Position numbers and translations under genes: made by a program
Origin: Escherichia coli
Lineage (GTDB): Bacteria; Pseudomonadota; Gammaproteobacteria; Enterobacterales; Enterobacteriaceae
Assembly (NCBI RefSeq): GCF_050920415.1
Contig: NZ_CP169309.1
DNA: 64,000 nucleotides
Direction: 5' to 3' (one strand)
Notes under the pieces: generated by a model
The model's input: the letters and a program-made list of their open reading frames with translations, nothing else
What the model was told of the DNA's origin: nothing
Databases searched by the model: none
Shown here: in pieces, positions 35,693 through 36,756 of the stretch
How positions within the stretch are numbered: position 1 is the first letter of the stretch
How the letters are laid out: the number at the start of each line of letters is the position of its first letter

Positions 35693-36547
35693 ATGATGAT
35701 CAATAAACAAAAATTAGTCAACCCTGAAAACTTGCCAGTTATTGAGTGGCAGGGAGTACGTGTAGTTACCACCGAAACGTTGGCGGCGGGATATGGAACA
35801 ACGCCAATCCGTATACAACAGAACTACATTCGAAACGAAGATCGTTTCGTTGAGGGTAAACACTTTTTCAAAATCAGCGGTGATGAGCTGAAATCTTTCC
35901 GACTATCTTTTAGCGAGTCGGTTAATAAACATACAACATCACTTGTCCTCTGGACAGAACGCGGCGCTGCCCGCATGTCAAAAATCGTCGATACAGACGA
36001 GGCCTGGTTGTTCTTCGAAAAAATGGAGCAGGCGTATTTTCGTAAAGCAACGCCTTCTTCAAACACTATTCCAGACTTTGACGATCCGATCGCTGCTGCT
36101 GAAGCGTGGATTGAAGCCAAAAAATCCGAACGCCTTGCTCTCGGGTATGCAGAGCGTCAGGCTCGCTACATCAGCAAACTCGAAAGCCATCTCGCCGATG
36201 GCATCACTCCTGTGCAGTTCTGCAAACAGCTCAACGGTGTAAACACTCGTCAGATTAATGCGTTCCTTGAAGAGCGTAACTGGCTGTATGACGACCGTCC
36301 GGAGGCTATGTATCCGCGCTGGCGTGTAAAAGCGTATGCACGTGACCAATACCTGACTGAGCGTTCTGGGCAGGTTGAGCAGGAAAACGGGGAAATGCGC
36401 GAGATTTTCAAACCACTCCTGAAGAAAAAAGGTGCCGCCTGGTTATATCGCCATTATCTGAACGGCGAACTACCTATGAAGAAAACATGGGATGGGCAAT
36501 TTACCCATAACACTGAGCTCGCGAATCTTTTACAGGAGAGCAAATGA
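35693..36547 (+). CDS. Phage antirepressor-family protein (ORF6N-like N-terminus, KilA-C/ANT-like C-terminus)
   Basis: 284 aa; N-terminal IEWQGVRVVTTETLAAGYGTTPIRIQQNYIRNEDRFVEGKHFFKI resembles ORF6N/Bro-N; domain labels from memory. Confidence 0.6.
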   Translation: MMINKQKLVNPENLPVIEWQGVRVVTTETLAAGYGTTPIRIQQNYIRNEDRFVEGKHFFKISGDELKSFRLSFSESVNKHTTSLVLWTERGAARMSKIVDTDEAWLFFEKMEQAYFRKATPSSNTIPDFDDPIAAAEAWIEAKKSERLALGYAERQARYISKLESHLADGITPVQFCKQLNGVNTRQINAFLEERNWLYDDRPEAMYPRWRVKAYARDQYLTERSGQVEQENGEMREIFKPLLKKKGAAWLYRHYLNGELPMKKTWDGQFTHNTELANLLQESK

Positions 36548-36756
36548 TGCAAACCAAGACATGTGTAACTGGTGATGTCGATCTGAAACCTTGCCCGTTC
36601 TGCGGAAATCCGGAAGTACAACTCATTGAGGTGAAATATTTTCTGGATGGCGATGATGGTTATTACGTCGCATGTACTTGCTGTAACGCAAACCAGATTC
36701 CTGATTCGAAAGAACGTGCTGTTCATGACTGGAACCAGCGCGAAAACGCGGATTGA
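36544..36756 (+). CDS. Lar-family zinc-ribbon protein (restriction alleviation-like)
   Basis: 70 aa with CPFCG...CTCC zinc-ribbon pairs. Confidence 0.6.
   Translation: MMQTKTCVTGDVDLKPCPFCGNPEVQLIEVKYFLDGDDGYYVACTCCNANQIPDSKERAVHDWNQRENAD

What the first reader, a model, noticed from the sequence alone, without database searches (positions are those of the whole stretch)
35693..36756. Antirepressor-family gene directly after cro, followed by a Lar-like zinc-ribbon gene
The position normally occupied by cII-type functions holds a 284-aa ORF6N/KilA-C-like antirepressor-family protein and a 70-aa Lar-like restriction-alleviation-type protein. An antirepressor transcribed from the PR side of the immunity region is unusual, and a Lar-like gene suggests anti-restriction counter-defence. 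No cII or N homolog was recognised.
Basis: partly seen in the sequence, partly recalled or inferred. Interest (0 to 1): 0.45.

Follow-up and report, generated by a model that had tools for sequence, protein, structure and literature searches.

The report
Common phage antirepressor-like plus Lar gene pair
Both genes are real and the domain calls are right, but this is an ordinary, already-annotated accessory gene pair that moves among temperate phages of enteric bacteria, and it is probably not the switch that wakes its own prophage.

Summary
Observation confirmed. ORF 35693-36547 (284 aa) has Pfam ORF6N (E 2.9e-20) plus ANT/KilAC (E 4e-5). ORF 36544-36756 (70 aa) is a four-Cys Lar-family zinc ribbon (TIGR03655 above cut-off; 33% identical to Rac RalR/Lar). 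The first gene starts 76 nt after cro, and the two genes overlap in ATGA.

The window is an E. coli lambdoid prophage. RefSeq already names both proteins this way, and the exact 284-aa protein is on 411 contigs.

"Unusual" is not supported. Relatives sit after cro, before the replication genes or before Q in prophages of several genera, and Roi or a stand-alone KilAC half fills the same slot in other coliphages.

There is no promoter-like site or LexA box ahead of the pair, so it is probably made only after CI is lost. A 96-99% identical protein accompanies at least four unrelated repressors. One CI type accompanies both ORF6N and KilA-N versions. Both points argue against a cognate antirepressor.

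Best reading: an early-lytic regulator like Listeria AriS or HK022 Roi, plus a facultative Lar-type partner. Both functions are untested.

Real cII and N homologues are absent. The P1-type antirepressor control elements (two isrK/C4 RNA + Rha modules) lie just downstream, outside the finding.

The parts
35640..35669 (-). Hairpin in the 76-nt cro/ORF6N leader. It reads as an intrinsic terminator for leftward transcription: 11-bp stem, then TTCTTTTTTC on the minus strand.
   Evidence: Terminator scan. The minus-strand RNA folds at -21.3 kcal/mol, z -2.5. The plus-strand RNA is no better than shuffles (z +0.3) and has no U-run. Two pairs are G.U on the minus strand, so they are C.A mismatches on the plus strand. 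The stem is identical in 5 loci, which differ only at two loop positions, including one with a different upstream gene.
35682..35687 (+). Shine-Dalgarno AAGGGG, 5 nt before the ATG of the 284-aa gene.
   Evidence: Read directly from the sequence.
35693..36547 (+). Gene for the 284-aa ORF6N + ANT/KilAC two-domain protein ('antirepressor-like').
   Evidence: RefSeq WP_021558726.1, 'ORF6N domain-containing protein'. The exact protein is on 411 contigs.
35738..35986 (+). ORF6N domain (residues 16-98). This is the swappable N-terminal cassette. A KilA-N domain replaces it in strains LH50-c, A34 and others, while the first 17 codons and the C-terminal half stay the same.
36203..36457 (+). ANT/KilAC domain (residues 171-255), preceded by a long helix (residues 132-166).
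36544..36756 (+). Gene for the 70-aa Lar-family zinc ribbon (Cys17, Cys20, Cys44, Cys47). Its start overlaps the upstream stop (ATGA).
35317..35616 (+). Context: cro-like gene, the first gene of the rightward operon that the pair belongs to.
   Evidence: PHROG 35; PGAP 'transcriptional regulator'.
35213..35308 (.). Context: three operator-like TCAAG-N6-TTGAT sites between cI and cro, matched by three more at 34358-34442 on the PL side.
   Evidence: Pattern match only. The window-wide count of the pattern is not above chance; only the 3+3 clustering is suggestive.

Best explanation
This is an intact two-gene accessory cassette in the early rightward (PR) operon of an E. coli lambdoid prophage.

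Gene 1 encodes a regulator of the Bro-N/KilA-N/ORF6N/Rha + KilAC superfamily. It has an exchangeable N-terminal DNA-binding-type domain (ORF6N here), a long helix, and a constant C-terminal ANT/KilAC domain. Gene 2 is translationally coupled to it and encodes a four-Cys zinc ribbon of the Lar family.

Shown:
- The pair has no promoter-like site and no LexA box of its own.
- The leader hairpin terminates leftward, not rightward, transcription.
- The cassette is mobile and is not tied to one immunity type.

Inferred:
- The pair is read through from cro, so it is made only after CI is lost or on infection, as early lytic proteins.
- Gene 1 works like Listeria AriS or HK022 Roi. The N-domain would bind DNA, and the KilAC domain would engage a protein partner (RecA/SOS in AriS, the C1 repressor in P1 Ant). 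It would tune the lytic programme, the host SOS state or co-resident prophages, and would not trigger induction of its own prophage. This prophage's CI already has a LexA-type self-cleavage domain.
- Gene 2 most likely acts on incoming or replicating DNA in the manner of Rac Lar (restriction alleviation).
For: - Identity.
- Early-operon placement without its own signals: no plus-strand promoter-like site between cro and the gene; no LexA box near it; the plus-strand leader RNA has no terminator.
- CI has an S24 peptidase domain.
- No co-variation with immunity type. The same CI (WP_000800136.1) accompanies the ORF6N version in strain 08-00022 and the KilA-N version in LH50-c. A 96% identical ORF6N protein accompanies a short 128-aa repressor with no annotated S24 domain and a different cro in strain 06-00048. 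99% identical copies accompany two further CI/Cro types in viral contigs L023 and L031.
- Variable N-domain with a constant KilAC half. This is the pattern described for AriS-like proteins, where the KilAC domain lowers the SOS response and the genes lie in the early lytic module (PMC9043618).
- The fold matches are DNA-binding-type folds: Dachshund, Bro-N, Ski and APSES, and MerR/excisionase winged HTH.
- The pair recurs as a unit. A Lar-like ORF directly follows the gene in 17 of 80 viral loci. It also does so, with abutting stop and start, in phages Fostie and SaltyDalty at 41% and 44% identity, but there in the leftward cI-to-xis/int operon.
Against: - No protein of this ORF6N clade has been tested. 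'ORF6N' occurs in only 11 held papers, and judged from their titles and abstracts none studies the domain.
- The KilAC match is weak (24 bits). AriS is from a Gram-positive phage and has a different N-domain.
- Transcription from PR is inferred from the absence of signals, not measured. The promoter scan is a crude consensus test and did not flag PR itself.
- Lack of co-variation does not exclude a broad-spectrum antirepressor of the P22 Ant kind.
- Lar linkage is facultative: 61 of the 80 loci have no Lar-like ORF within about 3 kb. The two proteins need not act together.
Confidence: 0.55

Rival explanations
1. Cognate antirepressor. The 284-aa protein binds this prophage's own CI. Because it lies in the PR operon, it forms a positive-feedback latch that makes derepression irreversible.
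For: - The family label and ANT/KilAC domain are shared with P1 Ant.
- The position immediately after cro suits a commitment function.
Against: - Near-identical proteins accompany at least four unrelated repressor types, and one CI type accompanies two different N-domains.
- CI carries its own S24 self-cleavage domain, and Cro already provides the latch.
- Relatives also sit before Q, in satellite-like elements and in a leftward operon.
Confidence: 0.1
2. Broad trans-acting antirepressor, P22 Ant-like. On infection or induction it inactivates repressors of heteroimmune resident prophages, cross-inducing them or overcoming their immunity.
For: - Early expression without its own control elements fits.
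- Lack of co-variation with the cognate CI is compatible with a broad range.
- E. coli strains carrying it are polylysogens with many related C4/Rha loci: 1628 of 5426 genomes match the neighbouring region.
- Trans-acting antirepressors are established in Salmonella (PMC3121763, seen in the listing).
Against: - It has no sequence relationship to the P22, Gifsy or 186 antirepressors.
- Both halves give DNA-binding-type fold matches.
- The one KilAC domain dissected experimentally acts on the SOS response, not on a repressor.
Confidence: 0.15
3. Toxic or host-killing pair. Gene 2 would be a RalR-like DNase toxin, and gene 1 a KilA-like host-killing or modulating protein. The pair would function in host shut-off or abortive infection, not in regulation or anti-restriction.
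For: - RalR, the only characterised Lar-family protein, is a non-specific endonuclease toxin (PMC4041452).
- The KilAC domain is named after P1 KilA.
- The ORF6N domain gives weak hits to the PADLOC candidate defence system PDC-S05 (E 2e-6).
Against: - The 70-aa protein scores 26 bits against the 113-bit cut-off of the RalR equivalog model.
- No RNA family was matched in or next to the pair, although whether Rfam holds a RalA model was not checked.
- The PADLOC hits cover only the domain.
- The intact pair is carried in many apparently complete prophages.
Confidence: 0.1

Closest known systems
AriS (LMRG_02920) of Listeria phage phi10403S and AriS-like proteins (Azulay et al. 2022, PMC9043618)
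   Same: [quoted passage not shown] It is encoded in the early lytic module and annotated 'antirepressor' by homology only.
   Different: AriS has AntA/AntB (or Bro-N or pRha) at the N-terminus, not ORF6N or KilA-N. It comes from a Gram-positive host. No sequence comparison with AriS was run here. SOS inhibition is untested for this protein.
P1/P7 Ant1/Ant2 and P1 KilA (immI region; source of the Pfam ANT/KilAC name)
   Same: It shares the C-terminal KilAC-type domain (Pfam E 4e-5).
   Different: P1 Ant has an AntA N-domain and is controlled by C4 antisense RNA through icd (my own knowledge of the P1 literature). Here the C4 RNAs (36929-37016, 37582-37669) lie downstream of the pair and target the ribosome-binding sites of Rha-family ORFs, not this gene.
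HK022 Roi (DNA-binding protein) as annotated in Escherichia phage PhiR49_2
   Same: Roi occupies the same slot directly after cro in a phage with closely related cI and cro DNA (the matched pieces average 92.7% identity). Its C-terminal half aligns with this protein.
   Different: It is only 21% identical overall, has a different N-terminal domain, overlaps cro instead of having a 76-nt leader, and has no Lar partner.
Rac prophage Lar = RalR (King and Murray 1995; Guo et al. 2014, PMC4041452), with lambda Ral as a functional analogue
   Same: It is a zinc ribbon of similar size (70 aa against 64), 33% identical, with all four Cys conserved, and it passes the Lar subfamily model. It is also an early phage gene.
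   Different: It fails the RalR equivalog model. It lies in the PR operon, whereas ralR lies beyond recET in the leftward part of Rac. No RalA-type antitoxin RNA was seen. The restriction-alleviation and DNase activities are untested.
P22 immI (arc-ant with the sar antisense RNA)
   Same: The geometry of the leader matches. A leftward intrinsic terminator sits between the upstream regulator gene and the antirepressor-like gene. A promoter-like site overlaps the start codon, so a roughly 55-nt RNA would be complementary to the Shine-Dalgarno sequence.
   Different: There is no sequence or Rfam match to sar. The promoter match is weak (9 of 12) and not above chance. The leader is absent from orthologues in Klebsiella, Fostie and SaltyDalty. 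The P22 arrangement is recalled from my own knowledge.

Membership tests
ORF6N domain proteins (Pfam PF10543) | Match to the ORF6N profile over the whole domain | tested here: met
   E 2.9e-20, model positions 3-86 of 86, residues 16-98.
ANT/KilAC domain proteins (Pfam PF03374) | Match to the KilAC profile in the C-terminal half | tested here: met
   E 4.1e-5, 24.3 bits, model positions 24-105 of 108. The match is weak but is repeated in the precomputed Pfam calls of most close homologues and in PHROG 63 and 130.
P1-type immI antirepressor (Ant1/2) | AntA N-terminal domain | tested here: not met
   Pfam finds ORF6N and no AntA.
P1-type immI antirepressor (Ant1/2) | C4 antisense RNA upstream, with its targets at the gene's ribosome-binding site | tested here: not met
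   Rfam finds C4 only at 36929-37016 and 37582-37669, downstream of the pair. The loop complements lie at 36869, 37052 and 37704, none near 35693.
P1-type immI antirepressor (Ant1/2) | Binds and inactivates the phage repressor | not testable with these tools
   This needs an interaction or reporter assay. The lack of co-variation with repressor type argues against cognate specificity.
LexA-controlled antirepressors (186 Tum, Gifsy GfoA/GfhA type) | LexA box and own promoter upstream | tested here: not met
   No CTGT-N8-ACAG site (up to 1 mismatch) lies within 35076-36680. The nearest sites are inside cI (35060) and inside the Lar-like gene (36681). No plus-strand promoter-like site lies in the leader.
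AriS-like dual-function regulators | C-terminal KilAC domain plus a variable N-terminal regulatory domain, encoded in the early lytic module | tested here: met
   compared with the description in PMC9043618.
AriS-like dual-function regulators | The KilAC domain down-regulates the host SOS response | not testable with these tools
   This needs SOS reporter assays.
Lar family (TIGR03655 / PF14354) | Profile match above the curated cut-off, with a four-Cys zinc ribbon | tested here: met
   49.5 bits against a cut-off of 39.6; Pfam E 7.7e-11; Cys17, 20, 44 and 47 invariant in 9 sequences including RalR.
RalR toxin (NF007260 equivalog) / RalR-RalA type I toxin-antitoxin | Equivalog-level match to RalR | tested here: not met
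   26.1 bits against a cut-off of 113.
RalR toxin (NF007260 equivalog) / RalR-RalA type I toxin-antitoxin | Adjacent antitoxin sRNA | tested here: inconclusive
   No Rfam family was matched next to the gene, but whether Rfam holds a RalA model was not checked.
Lar/Ral restriction alleviation | Alleviates type I restriction and enhances modification | not testable with these tools
   This needs a plating-efficiency assay.
Lambda CII / N functions in this prophage | A homologue present in the cro-to-O interval (cII) or at the head of the PL operon (N) | tested here: not met
   PHROG, NCBIfam and Pfam scans of the ORFs between cro and O and of eight leftward ORFs found none. The only hit is a PHROG 'CII-like' label on an XRE-HTH protein at 33887-34348.

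The most novel reading that the evidence does not exclude
The KilAC-domain protein and the Lar-type zinc ribbon are a functional unit, not just neighbours. The pair keeps its order and its overlapping or abutting stop and start at 41-44% identity while moving between rightward and leftward early operons.

One speculative model: the Lar-type protein nicks or marks DNA, which triggers damage-induced alleviation of type I restriction, while the KilAC domain restrains the resulting RecA/SOS signal.

A second unexcluded element is a sar-like antisense RNA of about 55 nt over the gene's ribosome-binding site. It would start at a promoter-like site at 35721-35693 (-) and end at the terminator hairpin 35669-35640.
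Probability: 0.15. Interest if true: 0.45.

Novelty: already known. Interest (0 to 1): 0.15.

Why it matters
The finding itself matters little. It is a correctly recognised, already catalogued cassette in a typical place.

Three points are useful:
- They caution against reading 'antirepressor' labels as function. This gene is not linked to any one repressor and lacks induction-type control.
- The ORF6N clade, common in enterobacterial prophages including Shiga-toxin phage relatives, has no experimental characterisation at all.
- The recurrent pairing with a Lar-type protein offers a cheap testable hypothesis about early anti-restriction or SOS tuning.

Tried and rejected
- LexA-box search near the gene: nothing relevant.
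- Rfam at permissive threshold over 35100-38600, looking for sar, RalA or other RNAs in or next to the pair: only isrK, C4 and c4-a1b1 downstream.
- PDB by sequence with the single protein, a 26-sequence profile and the 70-aa protein: no usable hit. The best was E about 1 to the GcrA DNA-binding domain.
- PADLOC: only domain-level hits of ORF6N to candidate system PDC-S05. These are not taken as evidence of defence.
- Search for N and cII among the leftward ORFs: none found.
- The 'ant' annotation of P1-like phage RCS47, which is 34% identical, was checked. The gene sits between pacB and c1, not in immI, and its 'experimentally demonstrated' note cites P1 papers. JL22 calls the same gene Roi. 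It is not evidence of function.
- The 264-aa protein upstream of a Lar homologue in metagenomic contig L018 is at best marginally related (pairwise E 4e-4).
- Iyer et al. 2002, the paper I recall as defining these domains, is not in the held library. P0127 has no context on record.
- Operator inference rests on pattern matches whose window-wide count is not above chance.
- The leftward promoter-like site is 9 of 12 in a region where the number of such sites equals the shuffled expectation. The antisense RNA is therefore kept only as a possibility.

Full report
**1. What is there**

The window carries E. coli chromosome followed by a lambdoid prophage.
- The chromosomal part includes MicL at 21991-22298. 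In strain 08-00022, a close match used as the annotation reference, the same stretch carries cutC, torYZ, cmoAB and yecN.
- The prophage starts with an integrase gene (29276-30589, -) next to a DUF72 gene. It runs through xis, a leftward early operon, cI, cro, replication genes and a Q-type antiterminator (41943-42308), and continues to the end of the window.
- The immunity region is classical. A 231-aa CI with an HTH and an S24 self-cleavage domain lies at 34494-35189 (-). A 99-aa cro-like gene lies at 35317-35616 (+).
- Three operator-like TCAAG-N6-TTGAT sites lie between cI and cro. Three more lie left of cI, where a TTGACA-17-TAATAT leftward promoter sits.

**2. The observation**

- The 284-aa ORF (35693-36547) follows cro after 76 nt and has a good Shine-Dalgarno sequence.
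- It contains a full ORF6N domain (E 2.9e-20) and a weaker ANT/KilAC domain (E 4.1e-5). It matches PHROG 63 'anti-repressor Ant' end to end.
- The 70-aa ORF (36544-36756) begins within the stop codon of the first gene (ATGA).
- The 70-aa protein passes the Pfam and NCBIfam Lar models. It is 33% identical to RalR/Lar of the K-12 Rac prophage, with the four cysteines and a WN.R motif invariant. It does not reach the RalR equivalog cut-off (26 bits against 113).

**3. It is already catalogued**

- The 1.2-kb segment is 100% identical in three complete E. coli genomes. It is present, at 50% or more of its length, in 17 of 5426 genomes. PGAP calls the genes 'ORF6N domain-containing protein' and 'Lar family restriction alleviation protein'.
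- The exact 284-aa protein occurs on 411 contigs of the large protein collection. Relatives at 53-65% identity occur in Klebsiella, Citrobacter, Pectobacterium, Hafnia, Pantoea and other genera.

**4. The placement is ordinary**

- A Klebsiella oxytoca prophage has the orthologue overlapping the end of a P22-type cro.
- A Pectobacterium prophage has it between cro and O/DnaC/DnaB.
- A Rosenbergiella prophage has it just before Q.
- Hafnia carries it in an integrase-AlpA-primase element that looks like a satellite.
- I fetched 80 viral contigs with relatives and mapped a panel of neighbouring proteins onto them. Roughly 25 contigs have the gene between the immunity region and the replication genes. 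At least 15 have it about 1.3 kb upstream of a Q homologue. Four are the satellite type.
- In coliphage PhiR49_2, whose cI and cro DNA is closely related (the matched pieces average 92.7% identity), the slot after cro holds Roi. In phiP27 it holds a stand-alone KilAC protein that is 56% identical to the C-terminal half.

An antirepressor-family gene on the PR side is therefore common, not unusual.

**5. Anatomy and mobility of the cassette**

- Five E. coli loci were aligned. The leader stem, the Shine-Dalgarno sequence and the first 17 codons are identical in all five. The C-terminal half, from about residue 127, is nearly identical.
- The segment in between is either ORF6N or an unrelated KilA-N domain. 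The N-terminal DNA-binding-type domain is thus a swappable cassette inside a conserved frame. This is the shuffling pattern I recall from the literature on these domains, and it is the pattern reported for AriS-like proteins.
- The left edge of the shared DNA is the base after the cro stop codon. This also holds in strain A34, where a different gene lies upstream.
- The right edge is the end of the Lar-like gene. In strain 06-00048 a DUF4222 gene and a ProQ/FinO gene follow instead of the C4 module.

**6. Is it this prophage's antirepressor?**

Three lines of evidence say probably not.
- It has no control elements of its own. There is no plus-strand promoter-like site between cro and the gene and no LexA box. 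The leader hairpin is a terminator only for leftward transcription. I infer that the gene is silent in the lysogen and is expressed with cro after CI has already gone.
- CI carries its own S24 cleavage domain, so SOS induction needs no helper.
- The protein does not track immunity type.
  - The identical CI (WP_000800136.1) is paired with the ORF6N version in 08-00022 and with the KilA-N version in LH50-c.
  - A 96% identical ORF6N protein is paired with a short 128-aa repressor with no annotated S24 domain, and a different cro, in 06-00048.
  - 99% identical copies sit beside two further CI/Cro types in viral contigs L023 and L031.

A broad-range, trans-acting antirepressor of the P22 Ant kind is not excluded by these points.

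**7. What it most likely does**

- An AlphaFold model (mean pLDDT 76.7, pTM 0.41) gives an N-domain (residues 17-116), a long helix (132-166) and a C-domain (173-256).
- The tool did not print residue ranges. Assigning the first group to the N-half and the second to the C-half rests on aligned lengths.
- Against predicted viral structures the best matches are KilA-N, KilAC and 'antirepressor' proteins.
- The only KilAC domain dissected experimentally in the papers I could read is that of AriS. There the KilAC half lowers the SOS response, probably through RecA, and the N-half regulates the phage's own genes.

I therefore commit to an AriS/Roi-like early lytic regulator as the most likely mechanism. 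Every functional step is inferred.

For the 70-aa protein the family assignment is solid, but the family's biology is ambiguous. The Rac protein alleviates EcoKI restriction (my own knowledge of King and Murray 1995), and it is also a non-specific DNase toxin of a type I toxin-antitoxin pair (PMC4041452).

**8. Is the pairing meaningful?**

- I built an HMM from Lar-family sequences and ran it over all ORFs of the 80 viral loci. It finds a Lar-like ORF directly downstream in 17 loci. These are all 13 loci with a close full-length relative (64-100% identical, ORF6N or KilA-N version) and 4 loci that share only the KilAC half.
- None of the loci with full-length relatives at 45-60% identity has a Lar-like ORF directly downstream.
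- Isolated coliphages Fostie and SaltyDalty carry an orthologous pair at 41% and 44% identity, with abutting stop and start. There it lies in the leftward operon between cI and xis/int.
- Lar homologues also occur after cro without the big gene.

The pair is thus a recurrent but facultative unit. A joint function is possible but not demonstrated.

**9. What lies next door**

Immediately downstream, and outside the finding, are two tandem modules. Each consists of isrK, a C4 antisense RNA and a Rha-family ORF.
- Aligned, the two modules are 82% identical. They differ at three sites that change together: the second C4 loop, an upstream complement inside isrK, and a downstream complement abutting the Shine-Dalgarno sequence of the Rha ORF.
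- In module 1 the complement is GCATACGG. In module 2 it is TCAACATAG downstream and TCAATATAG upstream.
- This is the P1/P7 immI logic with two specificities in series. These modules, not the ORF6N gene, are the P1-type antirepressor control elements of this prophage.
- This region matches 1628 of 5426 E. coli genomes.

**10. Verdict**

- The cognate antirepressor role is weakened by the context analysis.
- Novelty: already known.
- Interest: low, 0.15.

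Noticed in passing
window 36757-37433 and 37412-38287: There are two tandem P1-immI-like modules, each with isrK, a C4 antisense RNA and a Rha-family ORF. The C4 loop, an upstream complement within isrK and a downstream complement at the Rha Shine-Dalgarno sequence change together between the copies (GCATACGG against TCAACATAG/TCAATATAG). This looks like two different antisense specificities in series.
   Followed up: partly
window 36753/36774-37433 and 37415-38287: The long ORFs that PGAP and PHROGs call 'ash family protein' or 'transcriptional regulator' run straight through the isrK and C4 RNA genes. The real coding regions probably start at ATG 37071 (SD ACGGAGG) and ATG 37724. 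The N-terminal 'Ash' part may be a translation of conserved RNA. The first Rha ORF is short (120 aa) and below the Rha cut-off (37.8 bits against 45.95).
   Followed up: partly
window 35632-35721, minus strand: A leftward intrinsic terminator (35669-35640 plus a T-run) lies about 25 nt downstream of a weak promoter-like site (TTGACT-17-CATCAT, 35721-35693) that overlaps the gene's start codons. An RNA of about 55 nt from here would be antisense to the Shine-Dalgarno sequence, as in P22 sar. Alternatively the hairpin just insulates cro and cI from leftward transcription. It is conserved in the E. coli cassette and absent from distant orthologues.
   Followed up: partly
window 35744-36071, compared with L003 and L005: There is an in-gene domain swap. 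ORF6N is replaced by KilA-N between an invariant leader plus first 17 codons and a near-identical C-terminal half.
   Followed up: yes
window 33887-34348 (-), and 34358-34442: The first gene of the leftward operon, where lambda has N, encodes a 153-aa protein with a C-terminal XRE HTH. PHROGs labels it 'CII-like regulator', but Pfam sees only HTH_3. No N homologue was found further left. Three operator-like sites and a TTGACA-17-TAATAT promoter lie just upstream.
   Followed up: partly
window 42476-43663 (-), 43891-44005 and 44205-44393 (+): A 395-aa gene lies just downstream of Q on the opposite strand. It is annotated DUF4236 in strain 08-00022 and matches PHROG 17982, of unknown function. 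Two Rfam sRNAs, STnc490 and STnc100, follow it. The three tRNA genes annotated at this place in strain 08-00022 are absent from the window.
   Followed up: no
window 21991-22298 (+) and 7936-8013 (-): There are chromosomal sRNA matches left of the prophage. One is MicL, 365.8 bits over the full length of the model, inside cutC. The other is C0465.
   Followed up: no
L012/L013 (Hafnia) and L055, L056, L064, L066: ORF6N-KilAC relatives sit in a compact element with the order integrase, a 225-aa gene, AlpA-like HTH, ORF6N, a 249-aa gene, Rem-like, DUF4222 and an AAA_25 primase/helicase. It resembles a phage satellite. The family may take part in helper-satellite cross-talk.
   Followed up: no
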